From: Naegleria gruberi
Taxonomy: Eukaryota
Direction: 5' to 3' (one strand)
Assembly: GCA_000004985.1 (NCBI GenBank)
Contig: GG738870.1
DNA length: 64,000 nucleotides
Every line of letters starts with the position of its first letter. Position 1 is the stretch's first letter. This document shows, one piece after another, positions 2,020 through 63,070 of the stretch. The position numbers were made by a program, and so were the translations under genes. Below the pieces are notes generated by a model. The model made no database searches and had not been told where the DNA came from. It saw only the letters and a program-made list of their open reading frames with translations.

Positions 2020-2286
2020 CAAATTTCAAAATAAAATCTTTGAAATTCATAGAAAATTAAGATTTTATTCAAAATAATAGTAATCAAATTTAATGGTTGC
2101 GTGAAACAAATGGATTCACCTTGCAATTGAAAATATTCATGTTTGGAATTGCGAGAAGCATGTCGTCCTAAGTTCTAATAAATATTCGATTTTAAATTCG
2201 AATCCGAAAAAGGAATTTCTTGTCGTATAACTAGTTTGCATGATATGAGTTTGTTAGCAATTCACCAATTTAAAAAACCGAACCAC

Positions 2287-3710
2287 ATGAAACTCTATAT
2301 CTTCTTATTATTGACATTCCTGTCAGCTGTTCTTGTCAATAATCTTCCAATTAAAAGAAGAAACAAAGACTTAGAAAAATCATTCAATATTTTTCAATTT
2401 GGCAATCCAATCCAACCCTCTACCAAACATCCAATCCACAATATCAAAATTAACAAAGTTTCAAACCTTCAAATGTCACCAATAATTCTTGTTGGTGGAT
2501 TGGGTGGCTCCTCACTCATGTCCCAACGAAATCACAGCACCAACGAGCCACACTGGTGGTGTCAAAGAACCACTGATCCATTTCAGATTTGGTTATCCCT
2601 TCAGGAAATGATCCCCTATCTCTCAGAAGATTGTTTTGTGAACGACATGTCAGTGGAATTAAAAAATGGAATTCTTGGACAGAAAGATAGAAATGTTAGG
2701 ATTTTTGGAAAGGATATTGGTGGTATGGAAGGTTTAAATTCGATTATTGCAGAGTTTCCAAGTAAATGGTATTATATGAAGCCACTGGCTGACTATTTAG
2801 TTTCGAATGGAAGTTACGAAATTGGAAAGAGTTTGAGAGGGTTTACTTATGACTGGAGAGTGGGTGTCAGAGAGAGGGCAAATGATAGTTTGTCACTCGG
2901 AGGGGATTACTTCAAACTACAAAAATTGGTGGAAGAAACTTTTAAATTGAATGGAAGAAAAGTTTCCTTATTAGGGCATTCTATGGGAGGACCTTTCTTA
3001 CAATATTTTCTAGCTAATTTTGTGAGTCAAGATTGGAAAGATAGATATATTTACAAGTATATTCCTGTGGCTGGTCCATTTGATGGAACATCATTTTCTT
3101 TGGTAAGTAATTCAATTAACTTTTATTCGAAACATTTCAGATTCTTTATGTGACTGGAACTAATTGGCAATTTCCAGGATTCAAACCAGAAAATGCAAAG
3201 AAATTACTTAGACAATATCCTTCCATTCTATTCATGACTCCAACCCAATTTCCATACAAGTATCCATTCTTTTCTTATAAAGGAAATGTGAGCTATCATG
3301 TTGACCTTTCGGATATTGAGAAATTCTTGACAGATGCACAAGTTTCCAATGGAGTTGCACTCTACCATCACGAATACTCTCAATATAAGCACAATAGATT
3401 AAATGCACCTAACGTGACCACTCATTGCATGTATGGTTATGGAACTCCAACAGCCACACGTGTCAGATATACTGGAAACAAGGAATTGAAAGATTTAAAT
3501 TACATGGACGTGTTACATAACACCACTGTTGTGAATAGTGAAGATGGAGATGGAACTGTTCCAATATATTCTTTGGAATTATGTGATCAATTTGCCAAAA
3601 GTCAAAAAAAACCAGTTCATGTTCATCGATTTGCAAATGAAACTCACTCAGATATTATTAATTCAGAACAGTTCCAAAAAATATTACTGGAAATTCTCTC
3701 ATATGATTAA
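2287..3710 (+). CDS. LCAT/LPLA2-family phospholipase (lecithin:cholesterol acyltransferase-like) with signal peptide. Two exons: 2287..3102 and 3141..3710.
   Basis: Signal-peptide-like N-terminus MKLYIFLLLTFLSAVLV. An alternative in-frame ATG lies at 2245. Lipase pentapeptide GHSMGG. Intron 3103..3140 (gtaagtaatt...catttcag) joins ...GTSFSL to ILYVTGTNWQFPGFKP. This junction aligns with the intronless paralogue at 17841..19229 (SPILHMTGDTYG). Confidence 0.8.
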
Positions 3711-4392
3711 AAAATCATTCCATTTTAATAATTATTATTCCATTTATAGAAAAATGTGTGAACTTTAAATTTAAACTTTCTTGAAAATGCAAAAGAGGAA
3801 ATTTTGAGTACATACTACACCTAATTTTTCTCAGCCTGTTGTTGTTGCCAATATTTTCACTAAAATCATTATCACTGTCAGATTCGCATGATAATTCGGA
3901 AAACTTTCAATCTAATATTGTTCAACAACATGATCGATTCCATCAGGTACTTCCGAACATTTTCCTATTGGTTATCATGATGATATAGGTATTATTGTTT
4001 GCATTCCAATGATTTTGTAAAACTGTCTTTAAATTTGATATTTGGTTCTCTTGTCGATCGACAATATCTTCTGTATCTTTGTTTTCTTGTTTTTCTTGAG
4101 GGGATTTCCTGTTAGTGTTCCCTTCTCACTGGCTGTTGCTGTTGTTGTTTCATAGCATCCTTAATTTGTTGTTGGACGTCAACAACCAATTCATTACTTG
4201 TTGACATTTTTCAAAGTAATTATCAAATTAATAAATATTCAATATTGAAGTATATAAAATTTCATTCAAAACAAATATTTTGAGGAATTGAATTTAAGAA
4301 TGGATCGGGATCCCTCAATCATGTAATATTTAAATATCAAATTTAATATTTAAATTATTTTGATATTACAATTTCGGAAGTTTACAAATCAA

Positions 4393-4675: not shown

Positions 4676-4833
4676 GTAATTGTTTATTAATTTATTATTA
4701 TTTATTGATGGTCGATTAATATTTGCTGCTTTTTTAGATGTGGGTTTGTGTGAGCTTGGACGATTGTCAGTGGAAGAGTTGAGGTTGAGAGCTGCAACTT
4801 TGTGTTTCTGGAAGTTTCATTGTTGAGTGGATA

Positions 4834-7800
4834 ATGAATGCAAGTCCATTGTTGGAATCTTTGACAGTATTGACACTTACTAATCTTAAAACTGAATATT
4901 TTCACTTGTTGAAAGAGTTTAAGAATTTAAAAACTCTCGAGTTGATACGTCTTGTATCTGAACGAAATCTCCATGAAGAAGAAATGGATCAAACCATGAT
5001 TGGGTTTCCTCAATCTTTGACAGAGTTTCGTTCTAACTATCCACTAACACGCAAGAATATTGAGGACATCACACAACAATGTCCAAATTTAACAGTTTTG
5101 GTTATCAACCCTATTTATTTTGATGATTCTATCATGTCATTAGTACTTTCCAATGTTTCACAAAAGATTGAACAATTTTCTCTCTTTTCTCGAGACACAC
5201 TATCAAATATAACTGGTTCATACTTTTCAGTATTTTCATCCAATTCATTCTCCCATTTGAAAAAGATCAAGGTGGTATGGAAATCAACTTCTGATGAAAC
5301 AATATTGAATCTTCAAAAGAATTTGAGTCTCCTTTCAAGAACATTAGAAAGATTGAAAGTTGTTTTCACTAATGAATATGATTCCTCATATGAATTAGAT
5401 ACATTGTTAGGTTGTCTCTGTAATCTCTCCAACTTGTCTAAATTAACATTAGACTTTCCAAGAAATTTTCAATTTACCATTGTAAAAGAAGATATTTTGG
5501 AACAATTGAAAAGTTGTTTACAACTCAGAATTCTGAAAATTTATGGAGGTACTAACGAAATAGTTTGTTTTAATGTTGTTAAGGCTTTGGCAGGACAACA
5601 TTTGGAAAAACTGTTGTATCATACTGATACTTATTTTGATATTGAGGAGGAACCATTCTTTTTCCATGAATGTGAAGATTTAAAAATTTTGGATCTGCAA
5701 GGTGAACAGCTCCAAGATAAAATTATTCATCAAAATATCCAAGCAATAGTAAATTGCAAACTGGAAGAAGTTTTAGGTGAGGCCATTGAAGCTTCAGTTA
5801 TTCCTCATTTACCTAGGAGTTCTCTAAAGGTTCTTAATGTAAGGGTAACCAACGAGAATGTTGAATATCTAAAATATCTTGGAGAATTCAAGAATTTGAC
5901 AACATTGAAAGTATGCTTTGGTGAGCAGGTTACTAACTTACAAGAGTGCACTTTTCCAAGTAACATTACTAATCTTTCTTTTGTTGGAGAGATTACTGGA
6001 GCAGAAATTGGATTCAAAGACTGGCTGCTCTCTACAAAAATTTTAAAAGAATTAGTGTTTTCAAGATGTAAGATTCAAGATGAATTTATTAAGGATATTA
6101 TTCCCCTATCTGATGAATTGGATATCCTAAAAATAGAGTACAACAACGGCCTTACACAAGAATCAACACAATATTTCAGACAATTCACCAATTGTAGAGT
6201 TTTACTGTTGGAATGCTTTGACTCTAGAGTATTGAGCGCAGATTATTCTCTTTTTGAACAAGAAGTTAACAGGGTTACCGTTATAATGAAAGAAGAATCA
6301 CCAAGCACAAAATGGATTTGCCCAACAATTGATTATAATGATATTGATCAAGGTCTTTCCTATGTAAGAGAAAGAATGCATGTAAGAGAAATGAAAGATG
6401 CATGTTTAGCTATTGAACAACTATCCAGACATGTTTTTTTAGACATTTCGAAAGCCGAAATTTGTAAACTTTTTCTGAGTGCTTTTCAATATGAAACTAA
6501 TGTGGACTTTTATGGAATAATTGATCTTTTGGATGTACTATGGAAAGAAGGAAAAATTGTATTTGAGGAAAATAATATTCACGATCTGGAAAAGTTAATA
6601 CCTCTAATATTATCTCAAACTGAATTTTGTGTTGTTGCTAATATTTTAATGGATTTAGGGAGGTTCACCAGTTTTTTCAATTGTTTTGAGTATATCATAC
6701 AATGTTTGAATGATATTGAGTATAATATTCATAATTGCACACAAAAGATGATCAGTAGAGTTTTACATCAGTTTATTGATGGGAAACAAGATATTTGTAA
6801 TTTTTCTGGACATGTTGTTATTAATACTGTTATTGCAGTAGTGGATTATTTCCCACAAAATGATAGCATTTTGGACTTTATCAACCTAGTCATGTCCAAT
6901 GAATTTTTCAAATCTTCGAAGAAAACCTTAGAACTTATTGCAGAAAAGAAAGCAAAAATAGATGCAGAGTTCACAGAAACAGAAATTGAGCCAATATTGA
7001 AACCTATAGGAGAGGACCTTTTCCAATTTGTGCAGGAGAATATTCCACCACAGAAAAAAGATTATACCATTCATATTGCAGATGTTAAGGTACCAAAAAC
7101 TGGCCCTTTTAATACTAGCTATTATTCTGAACCTTTCATACGGTTTGGACACGAGTGGGTTGTGGAGCTTCTGCCAGGTATGTTACGTTTTATTAATTTT
7201 CTAATTATCTAATCGGAAACAGATGATGAAGATGAATGTTTGGGCAATTCTACAGTATTTTTAACACTAAATTCCACAATTCCAGTAGAGAATAAGCAAC
7301 AGGTATTTGATAGAATAAGACTCGACTTTTTTATTTGTAATTTTGATCTAGAACCTCAATCCTATCTTGTTCACAGTAGAAAATTCATTATGCCTGAAGC
7401 ATCTTATGGAGTATTTCTTGATAAAACTCATATTGCCGCTTACTCAACAGATGAGGATGATTTTCTCAAGTTTAAATTTGTGGTTGGGATGAAGAAAGTT
7501 GAGGAAGAACCATTCAAACCTTTCAATAATATTGAAATGTTCCATGTTGGAAGTAAGGAATTATCCTCAACTAATTATCCTCCTATTGTTCATAGATGGG
7601 CAGCAGAGTTTCCATTATCCATCCATACTTTGACATTTCGTGTTAGTCCTGATAATATTGATAGGTGTTGTTATTCAGATAAGTTCACAGCATTTGGAGC
7701 CAAGTTTTCAGCTTGTTTCAATCACTTGGGTGTTGCCAAAAGTAAGTAGTTTTATGAAATTAGTTACAAACACGTGTATTTCACTACGCGATAATTAACA

Positions 7801-8133: not shown

Positions 8134-8161
8134 ATGAATAGATTAAATAAAGAATTCCATT

Positions 8162-8537
8162 AGAAATGTTAGGATTTTTGGAAAGGATATTGGTGTGGTA
8201 TGGAAGGTTTAAATTCGATTATTGCAGAGTTTCCTATTAAATGGTGACTATTTAGTTTCGAATGGAAGTTACGAAATTAGAAAGAGTTTGAGAGGGGAAG
8301 AAACTTTTAAATCACATATTTGCCAAAAGTCAAAGAAAACCAGTTCATGTTCATCGATGTGCAAATGAAACTCATTCAGATATTATTAATTCAGAACAGT
8401 TCCAAAAAATGTTACTGGAAATTCTCTCATATGATTAAAAAAACTTTCCAATTTAATAATTATTATTCCATTTATAGAAAAATGTGTGAAATATAAATTT
8501 AAACTTTCTTGAAAATACAAAAGAGGAAATTTTGAGT
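8162..8537 (+). pseudogene. Decayed partial duplicate of the LCAT-like gene at 2287..3710: a mosaic of four colinear fragments plus the 3' UTR.
   Basis: 8162-8235 matches 2687-2756. 8236-8297 matches 2762-2840 with a ~20-nt deletion. 8297-8313 matches 2931-2946. 8319-8537 matches 3593-3800 (last codons, stop and 3' UTR). Fragments are about 93-95% identical, in the same orientation, with no intact ORF. Confidence 0.75.
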
Positions 8538-9227
8538 AGTATTGAAAGGTGTAGTATGCACTTGTTCGAAACTTTCAACAAGTTCAAACTTGCACTCAAC
8601 ATTCTCAAACATTTTCATCCATTTTCCAGTGTCGTATTGAGTAATAGGAAGACCGCTGCATTTAGTTGGTCCACCATTTGATGAAAATGTGGAAATGAGA
8701 AAGTAACCGCCCTTCTTTAACAATTTGCACATAATTTTTAAGTACTGAACTTGATCTTCCATAGAATTCAAAAAGTGAAAAGTGGCTCGGTCATGCCAAA
8801 TGTCAATTATTTGCTCTTCTTTCAAAACCGAGTCCAATTTCAAAATATTACTTTCAATGAATGAAACTCTTTCCAATCCATTCAAAGCTTTCATTAATTC
8901 TCGACTTCTTTCAAGAGCTGCCTTTGAAATGTCAATCAAGAAATATTCGCCAAATGTCACTTTTTCTCTCTTGATTATTTCATAGCTCAGATGGGAATTT
9001 CCGCAACCAACATCGATAAATGTCTTGTTGGCATCAGAAACATCGAGAGCGGAACCAAACTTTTCTATTAATTCCAATGAAGTTTCCGGAATTTCCTGAA
9101 ACCAACTTGTTTGTGAATCTGCTTTGGTTTCGTAAACATTTTCCCAGTGCGATTTCAAATCAGTGCTTGCTTCTTGAAGAGCTGAGCTTGCCACAAGTGT
9201 TGGTGTTGTTGAGGATTCTTGTTGCAT
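8499..9227 (-). CDS. Class I SAM-dependent methyltransferase.
   Basis: ATG at 9227 in an aaaaaaaATG context; the ORF-track start at 9275 is GTG. Motif I reads IDVGCGNSHLSYEII. Motif post-I/II (FLIDISKAAL) and the Rossmann pattern are present. TAA stop. Confidence 0.75.
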   Translation of the reverse strand: MQQESSTTPTLVASSALQEASTDLKSHWENVYETKADSQTSWFQEIPETSLELIEKFGSALDVSDANKTFIDVGCGNSHLSYEIIKREKVTFGEYFLIDISKAALERSRELMKALNGLERVSFIESNILKLDSVLKEEQIIDIWHDRATFHFLNSMEDQVQYLKIMCKLLKKGGYFLISTFSSNGGPTKCSGLPITQYDTGKWMKMFENVECKFELVESFEQVHTTPFNTTQNFLFCIFKKV

Positions 9228-9611
9228 TTTTTTTCTTACTGTCGGCTGAACACCAGTATTATTGCGCCATTTCACAAAACATACTATTATGGTGTGAAGG
9301 TTGGGCCGATTATCCTCATGACTTGTAAGGTGTGGAGCATTAACGTGAGAATCAGGATATCAAAATTGATGAAAATTGCAGAGATATCTATAGATATTTA
9401 CAAAATTATACTATGCCTTGATTCTGATAAATTGTTATTTATTTACAATAAAGAAATGTTGTTAATATATTATAAGGTACATTAACAGAGATTGGATTAC
9501 ATGACTAGGTGGTGTGTGTTATGGGGTTGGAGATTAGGTGGTTATATTACATTGATTCACTCGCTGGGACTATATAGAGTTTCATTCTCAAGAGAAAGTT
9601 GACCAAATACT

Positions 9612-9905
9612 TTACAACATTGAAAATGAAGCAGTAGGGCCAACTACATCCTTCGTACAAGCTGCATACGGACTATCACATGAAGAAAGTGCAGGTAAAA
9701 GAAAGACTGAAATGAAAGTTTTCAATGTAGCGACACTCAATCTCTTCTTCTTTTCAACCTTCTTCTTCTTATTGTATGTAGTTGATGATGAGGAGGAACA
9801 AGTCAATACATCATCTTCATCGGCATCATCACTAACTCTTTCATACTTGTTTGATTGTTCTTCCAATTGAATGCTTGAGGTTTTTGTTTGTTGTTGCGGA
9901 GCCAT
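9612..9905 (-). CDS. Hypothetical small Ser/Lys-rich protein with a hydrophobic C-terminus.
   Basis: Real ATG at 9905. No recognisable domain. Status uncertain. Confidence 0.3.
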   Translation of the reverse strand: MAPQQQTKTSSIQLEEQSNKYERVSDDADEDDVLTCSSSSSTTYNKKKKVEKKKRLSVATLKTFISVFLLPALSSCDSPYAACTKDVVGPTASFSML

Positions 9906-10698
9906 CTTATTATATTATATCAATTAATTGTTTTGTATTTTGTTTTAATTTGTTATTGTTGTGTGGCCAATAAACTGAATGTTGTTTAAATTACATCACA
10001 CAACAAGCATTTGTAACTTACTTGCCATTGAAAAGTCTCACCCGTGAAATTATTGTGATGAGAGATGCAATGTTGATGAGAGATAAAAATTATCTAAAAG
10101 GCTAAAAATTGCTTATTGGATGAAAGAGTAACATGTTCACCTCAAAAGAACCTTGCATTGGATAGGTTAGGTTGTCATCTATGATTGTTTTTTTTGGCGC
10201 CAAATTTTTAGATGAACTCTTTCGAGGAGAAGTTCCTTATTCATTTTAATTTGAGTATTCATTGCAAACTAGAGTAAAATCATGTGTGATATGAAAATAA
10301 ACGCAAAGTTCACATATCAATAATACATGTTTAATTTTTGTGTTTCCACTATGTACTGGATTCGATTTTGAAGTTGATTCACTGAAGAAAATATTGAGGC
10401 AAGAGCTCACATTGCTGGTTGACAATGCCATGTGTTTATACCATGTTTGATAATGGCAATAAATGCATTTTGTTAAGGGAGTTGTAAATTAAACTGATGA
10501 CTATTCTTTTGAATATTGTGGAAAATGATAAAAATGTAATTCTTAATATGGAATTTATTTTAATTGCTTATTTTGGTATGTACAGATAAATCCATGGCAA
10601 AATTACCGCAATATTCTTGGTGTGGAAGAGTTTGATTTCTTCAGTCTTGCTTGCTTGATCTTATTTTGTCGAATTTTCTTCAATCTGTAAATATCTTC

Positions 10699-11319
10699 CT
10701 ACTCAGTTTGTTCTAATTCTTCATTAATATACGAAATGGTATTGGAAAGCTTTGGTTGAATGATCTTTTCCAAGGCATTAACACGACGATTGGTTGACTT
10801 GATGGCTTGATCCAATGAAATGAAACTTGTTTGCAAATTTGCTAAACGAATCATTTTGTGAAGAGTTTCAGAAAATGTCAATTTGCAATTTTGAATTTCT
10901 TCACCTCCTCTTGAGAGGAATGAAAGTTGCTTTCTTGAAGGTGATTTCTTAAATTGCAATTTCTCTTCTTGATTATCAACTTGAGTAAATACAGCAAATT
11001 TGACACCTGACACATTTTCCATATGACTTGTTACTCTTACAGCTGCAGATTTAACACTTTCAGTAACTGCAAATGATAAATCTCCAGCACTATATCTTGC
11101 CTCAGTCAATGAAAAGAATGATTTACGAAACAAGCTTGTCATTCCTTCCTTTTCTTCCTTGATTTCGTTCACAATCGAATAAAACTTATTTCTCAAAGCA
11201 TCTGATTTCTTTCTAAGCATCGATTGACCACGTTTAGCACTATTCAAACGATTCTCCATTAATTGTAAGGTCATTCTATTCGGAACAACAGCCAATCTAT
11301 TATTAATAGTTGCAGACAT
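10699..11319 (-). CDS. vatD: V-type ATPase subunit D. The ORF as written ends at an in-frame TAG. The conserved C-terminal tail continues in frame to a TAA at 10603-10605.
   Basis: MSATINNRLAVVPNRMTLQLMENRLNSAKRGQSMLRKKSDAL ... ITNRRVNALEKIIQPKL closely matches Vma8/ATP6V1D. ATG at 11319. After the TAG (10699-10701) the same frame reads EDIYRLKKIRQNKIKQARLKK..., aligning with the conserved EEFYRLKKxQ tail. Confidence 0.85.
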   Translation of the reverse strand: MSATINNRLAVVPNRMTLQLMENRLNSAKRGQSMLRKKSDALRNKFYSIVNEIKEEKEGMTSLFRKSFFSLTEARYSAGDLSFAVTESVKSAAVRVTSHMENVSGVKFAVFTQVDNQEEKLQFKKSPSRKQLSFLSRGGEEIQNCKLTFSETLHKMIRLANLQTSFISLDQAIKSTNRRVNALEKIIQPKLSNTISYINEELEQTE

Positions 11320-11550
11320 TTTTTTATGTTTTGAAAATTTCATCTCCTGAAAATGTTTGTGAATTTAAAGTTTTTGCGATTTTGCTTTATTTTTAGTTTT
11401 TGAAATTTTCATGTTGTTTCAATTTGGTTGCTGTAACACGGAAAGTCGTTGGAAAAGGATAGTATGGAGTTTAGTTTTGGATATTTGCATTAGAATGGAA
11501 TTTCAATGAACATTTTTTGAACTTTATTGTAAATTTTCTTGTTAAAAAAA

Positions 11551-12687
11551 ATGTCATCAAACTGTATACACTCCCTCTCACTCGATGAAATTTTCAACGT
11601 GATGGAATTTCTCCCACTGAAAGATATTGGAAATGCTTTATGTGTTTGTCGAGAGTGGAATTCCCTAGATCAATATGAACCGTTTTGGAAGGCAAAGCTC
11701 AACCATTTTCTCTCCTCTAATATTATTCATTATTTCAGAAAATGCCAAGAGTTGTGTGGTTCTGACTTGAAAGTTTCGAATAACTTGAATGCTCAACAAA
11801 TTATTTCCATTCTAAACTCGGACGATTCCAAGAAGAAATCAATGGTCATTATTGCACTCAAATCCATGAAATGTGTTAACAAGACAATAATGGAACGTAT
11901 TGATTATCAAATTAACAAATCTATTTTAACAATGTTGGTCAACTCGTTTGATATGAATGTTTTGAAAGATAAAGTTGCGAATAGAATTTCACTCAGAATG
12001 ATTAAACAACAAGAATCTCAAAAAGAAGAACAAGTGATTGATCAGGAAAATGATTTCTTTGCATATGTCAGTGATGAGGAACAAGAGAAGAAGAATGATG
12101 AGGAATTAATTGGAGGACGATTCAAATACCTATTGGAAAGGCAAATCTTGTCAATTATTTCAACAACTATTTCCACATTCCTTTCCAAAAAGGTTAATAG
12201 AATAGGATTGTTTCCATTATTTATCAGAATTTTAACAAATAAGGAGTATAGATTCAAAGAAACTGAAATAAGTGATGATATTGACCTAGTGGAATATAAT
12301 GTCTTGCTTCAACTTGTGAAATTTCACAAAAAGTCAGAAATTCTCCTCAGGTATTGGACAGAATTGATTGACATGTCTATTAACAGATTGACATTAGAGG
12401 TAAGAGAGGAGGATTTTGGAGAAATATTGGAAACATTAATTGAGAAATATGACAACATATACTCTCTCACCATCCTTGGAGATATTTTCGATGAATTGGA
12501 ATATTTTGAACGTTTCTTACCACATTTAAAGAAATCAATTCAGAAGAATGGAATTGAGAGTGAATTTCTCATTTCCTACCTCGGTCGTTTGTCAAGATTG
12601 GAAATTCCAATTTCAAAAAAGTGGGAACGGGCTCAAATTTATTTGGAATACATTTTAGATTTTGCTCCCCCAGCCATCACAAACTTN
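11551..12687 (+). CDS. F-box protein, truncated at its 3' end by the assembly gap.
   Basis: ATG at 11551 (MSSNCIHSLSLDEIFNVMEFLPLKDIGNALCVCREWNSL is an F-box). The ORF runs uninterrupted into the N-run that starts at 12688. Confidence 0.55.
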
Positions 12688-13052
12688 NNNNNNNNNNNNN
12701 NNNNNNNNNNNNNNNNNNNNNNNNNNNNNNNNNNNNNNNNNNNNNNNNNNNNNNNNNNNNNNNNNNNNNNNNNNNNNNNNNNNNNNNNNNNNNNNNNNNN
12801 NNNNNNNNNNNNNNNNNNNNNNNNNNNNNNNNNNNNNNNNNNNNNNNNNNNNNNNNNNNNNNNNNNNNNNNNNNNNNNNNNNNNNNNNNNNNNNNNNNNN
12901 NNNNNNNNNNNNNNNNNNNNNNNNNNNNNNNNNNNNNNNNNNNNNNNNNNNNNNNNNNNNNNNNNNNNNNNNNNNNNNNNNNNNNNNNNNNNNNNNNNNN
13001 NNNNNNNNNNNNNNNNNNNNNNNNNNNNNNNNNNNNNNNNNNNNNNNNNNNN
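12688..13052. other. Assembly gap, 365 N.
   Basis: Contiguous n characters. All ORF-track entries containing X span this gap and are artefacts. Confidence 1.
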
Positions 13053-13249
13053 GATCCAAAATTTTATATTTGTCTTTACAATGCTTGCCAATTAAGATTC
13101 AACCACAATGTTTAATATTTAGCATCATTGCCAAATCTACAGTGCATCTTCCTGAAACTTTACAATTTCTTCAAGAATCTGGCAAGTGCAACCACCAAAT
13201 GGAAAATTCTAAAAATAAAACAAAACATTTCAAAAAAAAAAGCCACAAA

Positions 13250-14830: not shown

Positions 14831-15151
14831 CTTGCCTTCATGTGGTTTAGAATATTTTATCAGTCACGATTATATTATGAATGCTGTTGAATGTACAAGT
14901 CTCTACTGCTATCAGATATGCCTGTATTAATAAAATTGATAAGCAAATTGATCACTTGTTGGACTGAATGGCAGTCATGTAGACGTCTCTTTGTAAGGCA
15001 AGATGAGTTTGCACCACTCTTTCCAATGGCAGTCATGAGAATTTCCCTATTCCACTGGAAAATATTCATAAATATTTGGTTCCTTTTCAATAATTACCTA
15101 AAATATTTGTGAATGATTTAAAATTTCTAAAAAGAACAACCAAAAACATTT

Positions 15152-15224
15152 ACCGACAATGGGGCTCGAACCCACGACCCCAGGATTAGAAGTCCTGTGC
15201 TCTATCCAACTGAGCTATGACGGC
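15152..15224 (-). tRNA. tRNA-Arg (anticodon TCT).
   Basis: GCCGTCATAGCTCAGTTGGATAGAGCACAGGACTTCTAATCCTGGGGTCGTGGGTTCGAGCCCCATTGTCGGTA. Cloverleaf with D-arm GCTC/GAGC, anticodon loop CTTCTAA and T-loop TTCGAGC. The acceptor stem has one U-U mismatch and a terminal G-U. A T5 tract lies 5 nt downstream (15142-15146 on the minus strand). Confidence 0.6.
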
Positions 15225-17840: not shown

Positions 17841-19229
17841 TTATAATATTTCCAACAATTTGATAAAGAAACGTTCCTCCATCATGATACCAATGTGATG
17901 AGCACCCGGTAACACTGTAGTTTCAATCTTCTCCTCCTGCTTAAATTGTGAACACATCTCCAAGCAATAATCAGGCAAAGTATCATCACCACGTTCCCAT
18001 CTCGAAGCTTGAATATCTGCAGAGGTCAACTCTTCCATTCTCTTTGGACCAGTATAGGAATATTGAGTTGGAGTCCAATTATTGGAACCATAGATACATT
18101 GTGTTGGAACACCTGGAGCTGCAAATTTAATATCGAGAATGGATTGAGATTCTTGCATGAATAATTCCCAACCATTGGTCATTGAAGCATCTTTCATGAA
18201 TTGACCATAACTTTCAACTGTTGCAAAATAGTTGGCTTTCTGATTGGTTTGATTATTGGTATATTGGAACATTGGATAATTGGTGAATGGGGTTTTGAGT
18301 GGATACATGTATGAAGGACTGCCAAATGTACGAACCATCTTTTTGAATTGTTCTCTACTAAGGAAGAATAATCCATAAGTATCGCCTGTCATGTGAAGAA
18401 TTGGACTTTGAATTTCACCATCGTATGATCCTGAAACACTAATGAATTGTTTGATGAATTTTTGTTTCCATTCCTTAGAAACATGAGTGGCAAGAAAGAG
18501 TTGAGTGAATGGAGCTCCCAAGCTATGTCCAAGTAAGCTCACTTGAGTTCCATTGTTGAGATAGTAGGTATCTTCAACGAGTTTTTGAAGAATATCATAA
18601 TCTCCTCCAGTATTATTCATTCTTTTTGATTTCCACTCAATTGGACCAGTTCTCCAATCATAGGTCATTGCTCTCAATGTTTTTCCTCCAATATATCCAC
18701 CATGTTTAATTAAATAGGAAGTTAACAATTCCATATAGACTGCCTGATTAATAAATTCATAATTAGTAATGTAATTCACTCCACTCAGACCACCAACATC
18801 CTTTCCAGTGATGGAAACACCTGCATCTAATGGATGTAATTTTCTCGGTTGTCCCCTCAAATCCAATGTCAAATCATGCACTGTACATTCCTCTGTTACA
18901 TGTGGAATTAATTCATTCAAATTGGCCCACACTTGAAATGGCTCACTCGTTGTACTTTCACACCAAAAGTGTGGTTCCTTTGCATTGGTTCTTTGTGCAT
19001 TGAGAGCTGATCCACCAAATCCTCCCAATAGAATCAATGGACTCAATGTTGTGGAATTGTTTGTTGAGATGGCTCTTCTTGGATTTGGTGGTCCCTTGAA
19101 GGTCTTCCAGATTTCACTTGCTCGTTGACGAGTAATGACTGGTATTGGCAAAGAGTGAACTGTTAAAGATAAACAAATAATGACAACAAAGAGTGCCGTA
19201 AACAATTGTGCAATCAGATTGCTAGACAT
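17841..19229 (-). CDS. LCAT/LPLA2-family phospholipase, a paralogue of the 2287..3710 gene. Single exon, signal peptide.
   Basis: ATG at 19229. Hydrophobic N-terminus. GHSLGAP lipase motif. Colinear similarity to the other LCAT-like gene. Confidence 0.8.
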   Translation of the reverse strand: MSSNLIAQLFTALFVVIICLSLTVHSLPIPVITRQRASEIWKTFKGPPNPRRAISTNNSTTLSPLILLGGFGGSALNAQRTNAKEPHFWCESTTSEPFQVWANLNELIPHVTEECTVHDLTLDLRGQPRKLHPLDAGVSITGKDVGGLSGVNYITNYEFINQAVYMELLTSYLIKHGGYIGGKTLRAMTYDWRTGPIEWKSKRMNNTGGDYDILQKLVEDTYYLNNGTQVSLLGHSLGAPFTQLFLATHVSKEWKQKFIKQFISVSGSYDGEIQSPILHMTGDTYGLFFLSREQFKKMVRTFGSPSYMYPLKTPFTNYPMFQYTNNQTNQKANYFATVESYGQFMKDASMTNGWELFMQESQSILDIKFAAPGVPTQCIYGSNNWTPTQYSYTGPKRMEELTSADIQASRWERGDDTLPDYCLEMCSQFKQEEKIETTVLPGAHHIGIMMEERFFIKLLEIL

Positions 19230-19512
19230 TTTTTTTGATTTTTCTCAATCTTTCATTGTAATTTGGTAGGAGATAACAATCGAATTCATAAACGAGTGGA
19301 GTAACACGGTAAAATAGGAGCTGTACACTACAAGTAATAGTACAGTGAGTTGAAATTAGAAATTTTCTTGTTTTTAATGTTGAAAGTAGTTAAAAAAAGA
19401 GGAAGGATTTAGTTGGAGGTAAGAAAAGGATAGGGAATGGAATGTTACTATTGTTTGAGAATTTGAAATATTGGAGCGTGTGAAAAACATCATTGTAAAA
19501 TCATTTCTAATA

Positions 19513-36548: not shown

Positions 36549-36619
36549 AGGGAGATAGTTCAGTGGTAGAACATGGGATTGTGGTTCCTAAGATCAGGGT
36601 TCGATTCCCTGTCTTCCTA
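36549..36619 (+). tRNA. tRNA-His (anticodon GTG), copy 1.
   Basis: AGGGAGATAGTTCAGTGGTAGAACATGGGATTGTGGTTCCTAAGATCAGGGTTCGATTCCCTGTCTTCCTA. Anticodon loop TTGTGGT, T-loop TTCGATT, discriminator A. No G-1 is encoded, which is the eukaryotic situation. T5 terminator at 36624-36628. Confidence 0.85.
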
Positions 36620-36623
36620 CACC

Positions 36624-48213: not shown

Positions 48214-48286
48214 GCCCGTCTAGCTCAGTCGGTAGAGCGCAAGGCTCTTAACCTTGTGGTCGTGGGTTCGACCCCCACGGTGGGCG
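48214..48286 (+). tRNA. tRNA-Lys (anticodon CTT).
   Basis: GCCCGTCTAGCTCAGTCGGTAGAGCGCAAGGCTCTTAACCTTGTGGTCGTGGGTTCGACCCCCACGGTGGGCG, a canonical Lys-CTT sequence. T-rich terminator at 48294-48304. Confidence 0.9.
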
Positions 48287-50592: not shown

Positions 50593-50624
50593 AGTAAATA
50601 ATCAAAATTAAAAGTTAAAAGGTG

Positions 50625-50695
50625 TAGGAAGACAGGGAATCGAACCCTGATCTTAGGAACCACAATCCCATGTTCTACCACTGAACTATCTCCCT
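50625..50695 (-). tRNA. tRNA-His (anticodon GTG), copy 2. Identical in sequence to copy 1.
   Basis: The reverse complement is the same 71 nt as 36549-36619. The 5' flank AAGGGAGAT and 3' flank ACACCTTTT are shared with copy 1. Confidence 0.85.
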
Positions 50696-61939: not shown

Positions 61940-63070
61940 TCAATAGAATTTTCTATGAACAATGCTTGGACCCTCTTCTTGATATTCAAAATCAGTAAGC
62001 CACAAATTCTGAGATGATGAAAAACTAGCCATCAGACTGCCACCAAGCCAAACTGATTCATCACCCAAAGGAGGCGCAACTTTGATCTTGTATTTGTATT
62101 CAGGAAATAGTGAAATCAATTCTTTGGAAATTCTCTTATCCATTCCAGAAAACATCGTTCCACCTCCTGAAAGAATAATATTTGCTCTGAAATCAGCTCT
62201 AATATCAAGATCACTTTTGGTAATTGTGTTACATATTGTTTCAATGATGTTCTCTGATTCAATGTTGAACAGTTTTGGTTGGAAGAATATTTCAGGACAC
62301 TGATATCTTTCACAGTCCAAATTGATGTGATTTCCATCTGGTAATTCAAATATCTTTTCAACAGACTCTTGAGATTCAGAGACTTTTCGATATTCTTCTT
62401 CATAATTGAGAGCTACATAACAAACATTTTCCTTAATATCCCTTGCAATTTCCTTATCTACAAGTCCCTTTTTCGTTACCATCTCCATCATGTAATTAGT
62501 CAACTCTCTACCACCAAAATCCATTCTCAAAGTAGCATGAGGTAATGCACTTCCCTCATACACAGGAACTGAATGAGTTACATCATCACCAGAGTCCAAA
62601 ACTAATCCAGTAGTTCTGCCAGATGCAAATACAGACAAGGCAGCTTGACTAGTCGAATACAAACCCTGTACTCTAAACTTTTCAAACATTATTTCAGTCA
62701 TTTGTTCTCTATCCTTCTTCCGATAGTTTTCTGGAACTCAATAGAACGCCTCTCTGTAAAGAAGGATCCACCTTCATCTCTTCAAATACAAAATTCCAAA
62801 TCATTTCCATATCATCCCAACTTGATATTTTCCTCCCTTCTATTGGCTTTCTCAATATTAAATCTTCTCTCTTTAATTTGGCTACCTCTCCAACAAAATA
62901 ATCAATTCCCAAACAATGTTCTTCTCGTTGATGATTTATTATGTTGTATTCCTAACTTGGCCAATAATTGAAGGAAAAACAAGTCTCGGACCATCCTCAC
63001 CAGAAAATCCAGCTCTTGTCCTATAACCTCCATTGTCTATTACTATTGCTTCGTTATCTCCTGCTATCAT
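61940..63070 (-). pseudogene. Actin-related (divergent actin/Arp) gene whose reading frame is broken twice. Candidate pseudogene.
   Basis: Three consecutive ORF segments in three frames each align to successive parts of actin. 63070..62939 reads [38 protein letters not shown]. 62912..62709 reads IDYFVGEVAKLKR...SWDDMEMIWNFVFEEMKV...VLLS. 62701..61940 reads (DREQ)MTEIMFEKF...IVHRKFY. The frame changes occur within about 26 nt and about 12 nt without usable GT..AG introns. Confidence 0.5.

What the first reader, a model, noticed from the sequence alone, without database searches (positions are those of the whole stretch)
10603..10701. In-frame TAG interrupts the conserved C-terminus of V-ATPase subunit D
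The vatD reading frame ends ...YINEELEQTE-TAG. The same frame then continues for 31 codons, EDIYRLKKIRQNKIKQARLKKSNSSTPRILR, ending at a TAA. This stretch aligns with the universally conserved subunit-D tail (yeast Vma8 ...ELDELDREEFYRLKKVQEKK). The TAG sits where a Glu of the EEF motif is expected, so a GAG-to-TAG change would explain it. The possibilities are a base-call error, a strain nonsense allele in an essential gene (unlikely to be tolerated), or programmed stop-codon readthrough. Codon reassignment is unlikely: every other gene in the window stops with TAA and long ORFs are clean of TAG.
Basis: partly seen in the sequence, partly recalled or inferred. Interest (0 to 1): 0.6.

Follow-up and report, generated by a model that had tools for sequence, protein, structure and literature searches.

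The report
Nonsense codon in spare V-ATPase gene
One of three V-ATPase subunit D genes in the amoeba Naegleria gruberi has a single-base change (AAG lysine to TAG stop) that cuts off its last 32 codons; it is an ordinary nonsense allele or a sequencing error in a redundant, fast-evolving gene copy, not a recoding signal.

Summary
On the minus strand a V-ATPase subunit D gene ends at TAG (10699-10701). The frame then stays open for 31 codons encoding the family's conserved tail, and ends at TAA (10603-10605).

The window comes from Naegleria gruberi, and this is not its essential, canonical subunit D gene. N. gruberi has three D genes:
- A canonical one (P0004), 93% identical to the N. fowleri protein.
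- Two 97%-identical copies of a divergent paralogue, about 59% identical to the canonical one and lacking the usual acidic C-terminal motif.

The window holds one of the divergent copies. Its twin (P0121, 238 aa, on another scaffold) has Lys at the TAG position and an identical 31-residue tail. An independent, syntenic environmental contig (L001, 97.5% identical over 2.8 kb) reads AAG there.

Checks that came back negative:
- No other long ORF in the window has an internal TAG.
- There is no read-through context or downstream RNA structure.
- No plausible intron spans the TAG.

Best reading: a tolerated nonsense allele in a redundant copy (about 0.65), or a consensus error in the Sanger draft (about 0.25). 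Only the reads can separate these two. Programmed read-through is unlikely.

The parts
10603..11319 (-). Ancestral full-length reading frame (238 codons plus TAA) of a divergent V-ATPase subunit D paralogue. This is N. gruberi JGI 49328 / XP_002676793, whose annotated model stops at the TAG after 206 aa.
   Evidence: Translation. Pfam PF01813 at 180 bits. 100% match to P0001. 97% identity to the 238-aa twin P0121.
10699..10701 (-). Premature TAG at codon 207. The derived base is the T at window 10701 on the minus strand (A on the plus strand). The ancestral codon is AAG (Lys).
   Evidence: Syntenic ENA contig L001 reads GAG-AAG-GAA where the window reads GAG-TAG-GAA. P0121 has K. The family column is R in at least 90% of sequences.
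10606..10698 (-). 31 codons downstream of the TAG (EDIYRLKKIRQNKIKQARLKKSNSSTPRILR). They form the distal part of the C-terminal coiled-coil helix plus a short tail. They are intact, with no frameshift and no further stop.
   Evidence: 31/31 identical to P0121. 30/31 identical to L001, with one synonymous and one non-synonymous change. 12/21 identical to canonical P0004 residues 199-219. The AlphaFold2 model places residues 139-230 in one helix, with pLDDT about 95 at 201-220.
10603..10605 (-). TAA, the original stop codon of the gene.
   Evidence: The same TAA ends the reading frame in L001. P0121 ends at the same residue.
11320..11343 (-). Eight in-frame codons (MKFSKHKK) upstream of the annotated start. 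This is an alternative ATG of uncertain use.
   Evidence: The annotated proteins P0001 and P0121 start at MSAT.

Best explanation
The window carries one of two near-identical copies of a divergent, lineage-restricted paralogue of V-ATPase subunit D in Naegleria gruberi strain NEG-M. In this copy a single A-to-T transversion turned codon 207 from AAG (Lys) into TAG. If translated, the product ends 32 residues early and lacks the last ~24 residues of the C-terminal helix of the rotor-shaft coiled coil.

The change is tolerated because the cell also has an intact twin (JGI 75597) and the canonical subunit D (JGI 74068). This makes the window copy a young nonsense allele: a pseudogene in the making, or a crippled but possibly still usable variant. 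Termination at the TAG is ordinary and no recoding is involved.

Shown: the ancestral state AAG/Lys, the paralogy and redundancy, the intact tail, and the absence of read-through signals. Inferred: that the T is really present in the strain's DNA, that the truncated protein is made, and that losing it has little cost.
For: Organism and gene:
- The gene is 100% identical to N. gruberi XP_002676793.
- There are three D genes in N. gruberi: P0001, P0121 and P0004. All three are also listed in PMC10002747 Table 1.

Ancestral codon:
- P0121 has K at the TAG site and a tail that is 31/31 identical.
- L001, from an independent ENA metagenome assembly, is collinear with the window over 2,843 bp at 97.5% identity, including the neighbouring methyltransferase gene and the intergenic DNA. 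It has AAG at the site.
- With P0121 as outgroup, the window lineage has one further derived amino-acid change (M to F at LQ-F-KK, two bases). Real substitutions therefore do occur on this lineage.

P0121 is not a haplotig allele:
- Six neighbouring genes have no twin at 90% identity or more on the 174,974-bp scaffold that carries P0121.

Divergent and relaxed paralogue:
- It is 59% identical to canonical N. gruberi D, which is itself 93% identical to N. fowleri D.
- It sits on a long branch inside the heterolobosean clade, bootstrap 0.965.
- It deviates at 21 of 80 family-conserved columns, against 8 for the canonical copy.
- It lacks the near-universal D-x-D-[VIL]-[VIL]-F C-terminus.
- It has an 8-residue loop insertion.

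The lesion is young:
- It is the only lesion. dN/dS between the window and L001 is about 0.3 both before and after the TAG, on very small counts.

Tolerance by analogy:
- Removing 36 C-terminal residues from the F1 gamma axle only halves torque (PMC6367419).
Against: - No sequencing reads could be inspected, so the T could be a consensus error in the 2010 Sanger draft.
- L001 comes from a different strain (1-2.5% diverged). It shows the ancestral state, not what NEG-M carries.
- The dN/dS of about 0.3 and the perfectly intact tail are also what an error or an actively translated tail would give. With 6 non-synonymous and 5 synonymous changes, neutrality cannot be rejected either way.
- Expression of this copy was not tested.
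Confidence: 0.65

Rival explanations
1. Base-call or consensus error in the draft assembly. Under this reading the strain really has AAG, the gene is intact at 238 aa like its twin, and the annotated 206-aa model is an artefact.
For: - The sequence is otherwise a perfect, full-length gene with one lesion, and the tail is 31/31 identical to P0121.
- The closest syntenic sequence has AAG.
- The scaffold has an assembly gap 2 kb away at 12687-13052, so local assembly is not flawless.
- No independent assembly reproducing the TAG was found. An exact look-up of the 214-aa product found nothing.
Against: - Consensus error rates of finished-quality Sanger assemblies are orders of magnitude below the roughly 1% per-site real divergence seen on this lineage. 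This comparison is an inference from general knowledge.
- The gap lies more than one Sanger read length away from the site.
- The gene is redundant and fast-evolving, so a true nonsense allele is not implausible.
Confidence: 0.25
2. Programmed (functional) stop-codon read-through. Under this reading ribosomes decode the UAG at a useful frequency, producing both a truncated and a full-length subunit D isoform.
For: - The 31 downstream codons are open, conserved and end at the family's normal stop.
- Post-TAG dN/dS is not elevated, though this rests on one synonymous and one non-synonymous change.
- Near-cognate decoding of UAG can insert Lys, Gln or Tyr (general knowledge from yeast and mammalian studies). 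Basal leak would therefore partly restore the ancestral protein.
Against: - The stop is not conserved. The twin paralogue and the syntenic environmental allele both have a Lys codon.
- The context is UAG-G-AAGAU, which matches neither the UAG-CARYYA nor the UGA-CUAG type of leaky context (the motif definitions are from general knowledge).
- The 112 nt downstream fold no better than shuffles: -11.4 against -12.6 kcal/mol, z = +0.40.
- No other gene in the window shows a TAG followed by conserved coding sequence.
- No paper in the searched library (open-access PMC plus bioRxiv) describes stop-codon read-through in Naegleria: the only five papers that mention both terms are on other topics.
Confidence: 0.04
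3. TAG is a sense codon in this organism (codon reassignment or a dedicated suppressor tRNA).
For: TAG is rare as a stop in the window, ending 3 of 38 long ORFs.
Against: - None of about 35 long ORFs has an internal TAG in its coding body.
- The four tRNAs in the window are Arg-TCT, His-GTG (two copies) and Lys-CTT. None has a CTA anticodon.
- Homologues use AAG at this site.
Confidence: 0.01
4. The TAG lies in a short in-frame intron that is spliced out, like the 45-nt intron with an in-frame TAA seen at 7178-7222.
For: - N. gruberi does have very short in-frame introns containing stops.
- A GTATAT...TTTACAG candidate of 48 nt (10685-10732) spans the TAG and preserves the frame.
Against: - Every in-frame GT..AG candidate deletes at least 16 residues, including family-invariant positions such as E201, E208 and R212.
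- The region aligns without a gap to all homologues.
- The region is plainly coding in P0121 and L001.
Confidence: 0.01

Closest known systems
N. gruberi XP_002669461 (JGI 75597; P0121), the twin copy of the divergent subunit D paralogue
   Same: 97% identical over 206 residues, the same 8-residue loop insertion, the same non-canonical C-terminus ...SSTPRILR, and an identical 31-residue tail.
   Different: It has Lys at codon 207 and so is full length (238 aa). It lies on another scaffold (174,974 bp), and the window's neighbouring genes are not duplicated there.
Canonical eukaryotic V-ATPase subunit D (yeast Vma8, human ATP6V1D, N. gruberi JGI 74068 / P0004)
   Same: The same Pfam family (PF01813) and the same predicted fold: two long helices forming a coiled coil, plus a beta-hairpin. 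All 27 family-invariant residues are kept in the full-length form.
   Different: Only 59% identical to the canonical N. gruberi protein. It deviates at 21 of 80 conserved columns, lacks the acidic D-x-D-[VIL]-[VIL]-F C-terminus, has an 8-residue insertion, and in this copy is truncated at codon 207.
Nonsense alleles or young pseudogenes in recently duplicated genes (a general, well-known class)
   Same: A single disabling substitution relative to intact close relatives, an intact duplicate that provides redundancy, and no secondary decay yet.
   Different: The presence of the mutation in the organism, as opposed to the assembly, has not been verified. Selection on the locus is not demonstrably relaxed to neutrality (omega about 0.3 on 11 substitutions).
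Programmed stop-codon read-through genes (TMV replicase UAG-CAAUUA, MuLV gag-pol UAG plus pseudoknot, mammalian LDHB/MDH1 UGA-CUAG); descriptions from general knowledge
   Same: An in-frame stop followed by an open, conserved extension.
   Different: The stop is not conserved in relatives. There is no leaky context and no downstream structure.

Membership tests
V-type ATPase subunit D (Pfam PF01813, ATP-synt_D) | Significant match to the family profile over its full length | tested here: met
   180.3 bits against a cut-off of 25.7, covering profile positions 2-195 of 196 and spanning the TAG. E about 1e-50 to solved V-ATPase D chains.
V-type ATPase subunit D (Pfam PF01813, ATP-synt_D) | Long N- and C-terminal helices forming the rotor coiled coil, with a central beta-hairpin | tested here: met
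   AlphaFold2 model of the full-length twin: helix 15-78, strands 96-103 and 106-113, helix 139-230, mean pLDDT 85. The product as encoded in the window would lack residues 207-238.
Canonical (orthologous) eukaryotic subunit D / Vma8 | Orthology: clusters tightly with the single D of related species | tested here: not met
   59-60% identity to the canonical Naegleria D proteins, which are 87-99% identical to each other. The window protein sits on a long separate branch.
Canonical (orthologous) eukaryotic subunit D / Vma8 | Acidic-hydrophobic C-terminal end motif (D-x-D-[VIL]-[VIL]-F/V) | tested here: not met
   Most of the 41 aligned homologues end this way. The divergent pair ends ...SSTPRILR.
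Programmed stop-codon read-through | The stop codon is conserved at the site in orthologues or close paralogues | tested here: not met
   AAG in the syntenic contig L001. Lys in P0121.
Programmed stop-codon read-through | A read-through-promoting 3' context or downstream RNA structure | tested here: not met
   The context is UAG-GAAGAU. The downstream 112 nt fold at -11.4 kcal/mol against a shuffle mean of -12.6, z = +0.40.
Programmed stop-codon read-through | The extended protein is detected (ribosome profiling, mass spectrometry or a reporter) | not testable with these tools
   No expression data are available. In addition, the tryptic peptide across the site differs from that of the twin only by Leu/Ile (PKLSN against PKISN). 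These are isobaric, so mass spectrometry would be ambiguous.
Stop-codon reassignment (TAG as sense) | Recurrent in-frame TAG at conserved positions in many genes | tested here: not met
   No internal TAG in the coding body of about 35 long ORFs in the 64-kb window.
Nonsense allele / young pseudogene of a duplicated gene | A disabling change relative to intact close relatives, with redundancy available | tested here: met
   TAG against AAG/Lys in L001 and P0121. The intact twin and the canonical copy are both in the same genome.
Nonsense allele / young pseudogene of a duplicated gene | The mutation is truly present in the organism's DNA | not testable with these tools
   No reads or second NEG-M assembly are accessible. 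Exact-product look-ups found no independent contig carrying the TAG version.
Nonsense allele / young pseudogene of a duplicated gene | Relaxed selection (omega near 1) or further lesions | tested here: inconclusive
   Omega is about 0.32 on 6 non-synonymous and 5 synonymous changes, and there is no second lesion. This fits a very recent event but gives little statistical power.

The most novel reading that the evidence does not exclude
The TAG is real in strain NEG-M, and low-level near-cognate decoding of it (inserting Lys, Gln or Tyr) yields two forms of a specialised, non-canonical rotor subunit D. That would give N. gruberi a tunable V-ATPase isoform, for example for the contractile vacuole or one life-cycle stage.
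Probability: 0.03. Interest if true: 0.5.

Novelty: new member of a known kind. Interest (0 to 1): 0.12.

Why it matters
As a recoding candidate it does not hold up, so its main value is practical. The public model XP_002676793 (206 aa) is either a truncated allele or an assembly error, and should be flagged as such when N. gruberi V-ATPase subunits are catalogued.

A secondary point of modest interest is that N. gruberi carries a duplicated, fast-evolving subunit D paralogue. No counterpart appeared among the N. fowleri or N. lovaniensis proteins in the database searched. It lacks the conserved acidic C-terminus, so it could mark a specialised V-ATPase or a gene family in decay. The nonsense copy suggests that at least one member is dispensable.

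Tried and rejected
- Codon reassignment. I rescanned all six frames with TAG, TGA or TAA allowed in turn. Only this gene gains conserved coding sequence past a TAG. Rejected.
- Intron spanning the TAG. I enumerated 85 GT..AG candidates. All in-frame ones delete invariant residues. Rejected.
- Read-through structure. The downstream RNA folds no better than shuffles. Rejected.
- Suppressor tRNA. None in the window.
- P0121 as a haplotig allele. Six neighbouring genes have no twin on that scaffold. Rejected in favour of a dispersed duplicate.
- Getting DNA for P0001, P0004 and P0121. N. gruberi is not in the gene-position index. The dS between the twins and the codon used in P0121 could therefore not be determined.
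- Exact-product look-up of the 214-aa TAG version in independent assemblies found nothing.
- More environmental alleles. A protein-pattern scan and an exact DNA-pattern scan of JGI metagenomes both found nothing.
- Literature. The N. gruberi genome paper is not held. The ENA project PRJEB11402 is not mentioned in any held paper. No paper in the searched library describes stop-codon read-through in Naegleria.

Full report
**What is in the sequence.** The feature lies on the minus strand. The ORF 11343..10699 translates to a V-ATPase subunit D-like protein that ends ...SYINEELEQTE followed by TAG (10701..10699). The annotated start, MSAT, is at 11319. The same frame then continues for 31 codons, EDIYRLKKIRQNKIKQARLKKSNSSTPRILR, to TAA at 10605..10603. 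Pfam ATP-synt_D (PF01813) matches at 180 bits, straight across the TAG, to profile position 195 of 196. Solved V-ATPase D chains align collinearly across the TAG with E about 1e-50.

An open stretch of 31 codons after a stop is not in itself unusual in this window. Eight of 41 long ORFs have one, and about 13-16% is expected. The tail is nevertheless clearly homologous coding sequence. It has 12/21 identities to residues 199-219 of the canonical N. gruberi D (E = 2e-5).

Two details of the finding need correcting:
- The TAG aligns with the nearly invariant Arg/Lys of ELE-R-E-[ED]-F-[FY]-RLKK, not with a Glu.
- TAA is the dominant stop but not the only one. ORFs of at least 150 codons end in TAA 29 times, TGA 6 times and TAG 3 times, and an actin-like gene genuinely ends in TGA.

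**Organism and gene family.** The protein before the TAG is 100% identical to Naegleria gruberi XP_002676793 (JGI 49328, 206 aa), so the public gene model stops at this TAG. N. gruberi has two more subunit D genes:
- P0004 (JGI 74068, 254 aa) is the canonical one. It is 93% identical to the D subunits of N. fowleri and N. lovaniensis.
- P0121 (JGI 75597, 238 aa) is 97% identical to the window's gene.

All three are listed as N. gruberi V1 subunit D genes in Table 1 of Velle et al. 2023 (PMC10002747). That table does not comment on the truncation.

The window gene and P0121 form a divergent pair:
- They are only 59-60% identical to the canonical Naegleria proteins.
- They sit on a long branch inside the heterolobosean clade. 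Bootstrap support is 0.965 for Naegleria plus P0006 plus the pair, and their exact position is unresolved.
- They carry an 8-residue loop insertion.
- They deviate at 21 of 80 columns that are at least 90% conserved in other eukaryotes, against 8 for the canonical copy.
- They lack the near-universal acidic-hydrophobic C-terminus D-x-D-[VIL]-[VIL]-F.

No counterpart of the pair appeared among the N. fowleri or N. lovaniensis proteins in the database searched. The premise that this is an essential, single-copy vatD is therefore wrong.

**What the TAG was.** Two independent comparisons give the ancestral state.
- P0121 has Lys at the position, and its following 31 residues are identical to those encoded after the window's TAG.
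- L001 is a 2,859-bp contig from an unrelated ENA metagenome assembly (ERZ929261 / ERR1078381). It is collinear with window 11155..8318 at 97.5% identity. It spans the 3' 550 bp of vatD, the intergenic DNA, a small ORF and the neighbouring methyltransferase gene. At the site it reads ACT GAG AAG GAA GAT where the window reads ACT GAG TAG GAA GAT, and its gene call runs on to the same TAA.

A second contig from the same sample, L002, matches another part of the window at 99.1%. The sample therefore holds a sister strain of N. gruberi, and L001 is the same locus rather than the P0121 locus. The TAG is a derived single A-to-T transversion of AAG (Lys).

P0121 is not simply the other haplotype of this region. 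Six neighbouring genes that I could look up by exact sequence have no cluster-mate at 90% identity or more on the 174,974-bp scaffold that carries P0121.

**Is anything other than ordinary termination needed?**
- Reassignment of TAG is excluded within the window. When TAG is allowed as sense, no other long ORF gains an internal TAG in its coding body. The window's four tRNAs are Arg-TCT, His-GTG (two copies) and Lys-CTT.
- An intron is excluded. Of 85 GT..AG candidates spanning the TAG, every in-frame one removes at least 16 residues, including invariant positions. The region is also plainly coding in P0121 and L001. I checked this because the window does contain a 45-nt in-frame intron with an internal TAA, at 7178-7222.
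- Programmed read-through lacks its usual hallmarks. The stop is not conserved in the closest relatives. The 3' context (UAG-GAAGAU) matches no known leaky motif; the motif definitions are from general knowledge. The downstream 112 nt fold no better than shuffled sequence (z = +0.40). No paper in the searched library describes stop-codon read-through in Naegleria.

**Consequence for the protein.** This part is inference from a model. An AlphaFold2 model of the full-length twin has mean pLDDT 85. It predicts an N-terminal helix at 15-78, a beta-hairpin at 96-113, and one continuous C-terminal helix at 139-230, with pLDDT about 95 at residues 201-220. A stop at codon 207 would remove the last ~24 helical residues of the coiled-coil axle.

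In rotary ATPases the termini of this coiled coil penetrate the catalytic hexamer. Removing 36 C-terminal residues from the F1 gamma axle only halves torque (PMC6367419). A truncated D need not be completely dead. With two other D genes present, it need not function at all.

**Real allele or error?** These tools cannot settle this, because no NEG-M reads or second NEG-M assembly were reachable.

Points favouring a real allele:
- The window lineage differs from the sister strain at 1-2.5% of sites.
- It has at least one other derived amino-acid change in this gene, M to F, involving two bases.
- Real substitutions are therefore far more frequent per site than consensus errors in a Sanger assembly of about 8x coverage. 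The error rate and the coverage figure are from general knowledge, not tested here.
- The gene is redundant and fast-evolving.

Points favouring an error:
- This is the only lesion.
- The tail is pristine.
- dN/dS against L001 is about 0.3 both before and after the TAG, although only 6 non-synonymous and 5 synonymous changes are available.

My probabilities are: real nonsense allele about 0.65, consensus error about 0.25, functional read-through about 0.04, and intron or reassignment about 0.01 each.

**Comparison with known things and verdict.** The gene is a member of the subunit D family by sequence and predicted fold. It is not the orthologue of Vma8/ATP6V1D, and it fails the tests for programmed read-through and for codon reassignment. 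The finding belongs to a very familiar class: a single nonsense difference in one copy of a duplicated gene, or a draft-assembly error. It is of low interest as a recoding candidate. The only mildly notable biology is the existence of the divergent, duplicated subunit D paralogue itself.

Noticed in passing
window 7178-7222 (+), within gene 4789..7749: A 45-nt GT...AG intron (GTATGTTACG...GGAAACAG) whose length is a multiple of three and which contains an in-frame TAA (7210-7212). This explains why an 807-codon ORF is followed in the same frame by another 178 open codons. The gene's last ORF ends in TAG at 7747-7749.
   Followed up: partly
window 10603-11319 (-) and P0121: Even in intact form, the divergent subunit D pair lacks the acidic D-x-D-[VIL]-[VIL]-F C-terminus found in nearly all eukaryotic D subunits. 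It also has an 8-residue insertion (LQ[FM]KKSPS) after the beta-hairpin. It could be a specialised V-ATPase rotor isoform or a decaying gene family. No counterpart appeared among the N. fowleri or N. lovaniensis proteins in the database searched.
   Followed up: partly
window 8161-8538 versus 2688-3810: Two same-strand repeat pieces: 8318-8538 is 95.5% identical to 3590-3810, and 8161-8296 is 85% identical to 2688-2841, which lies inside the LCAT-family gene at 2182-3153. This looks like a degenerate fragment of a local segmental duplication lying just downstream of the methyltransferase gene.
   Followed up: partly
window 2182-3153 (+) and 17841-19244 (-): Two LCAT-family (PF02450) paralogues, 43% identical over 273 residues. 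The first ORF matches only profile positions 5-165 of 392 and ends in TGA, so it probably continues past an intron.
   Followed up: partly
window 12687-13052: An assembly gap (366 N) inside a long F-box/LRR-like ORF (11539-13095, +), about 2 kb from the TAG site.
   Followed up: no
window 36549-36620 (+) and 50624-50695 (-); 15151-15224 (-); 48214-48286 (+): Four tRNA genes: two copies of tRNA-His(GTG) on opposite strands, tRNA-Arg(TCT) and tRNA-Lys(CTT).
   Followed up: no
window 61940-62737 (-): An actin-family ORF that matches only profile positions 229-409 of 410 and ends in TGA. The N-terminal half must lie in another exon or frame upstream, or the gene is a fragment.
   Followed up: no
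L001 and L002 (ENA ERZ929261, run ERR1078381, project PRJEB11402): A metagenome assembly contains contigs 97.5-99.1% identical to this N. gruberi scaffold, which indicates a closely related N. gruberi strain in that sample. It could supply natural alleles for other NEG-M gene models. The sample's origin was not found in the held literature.
   Followed up: partly
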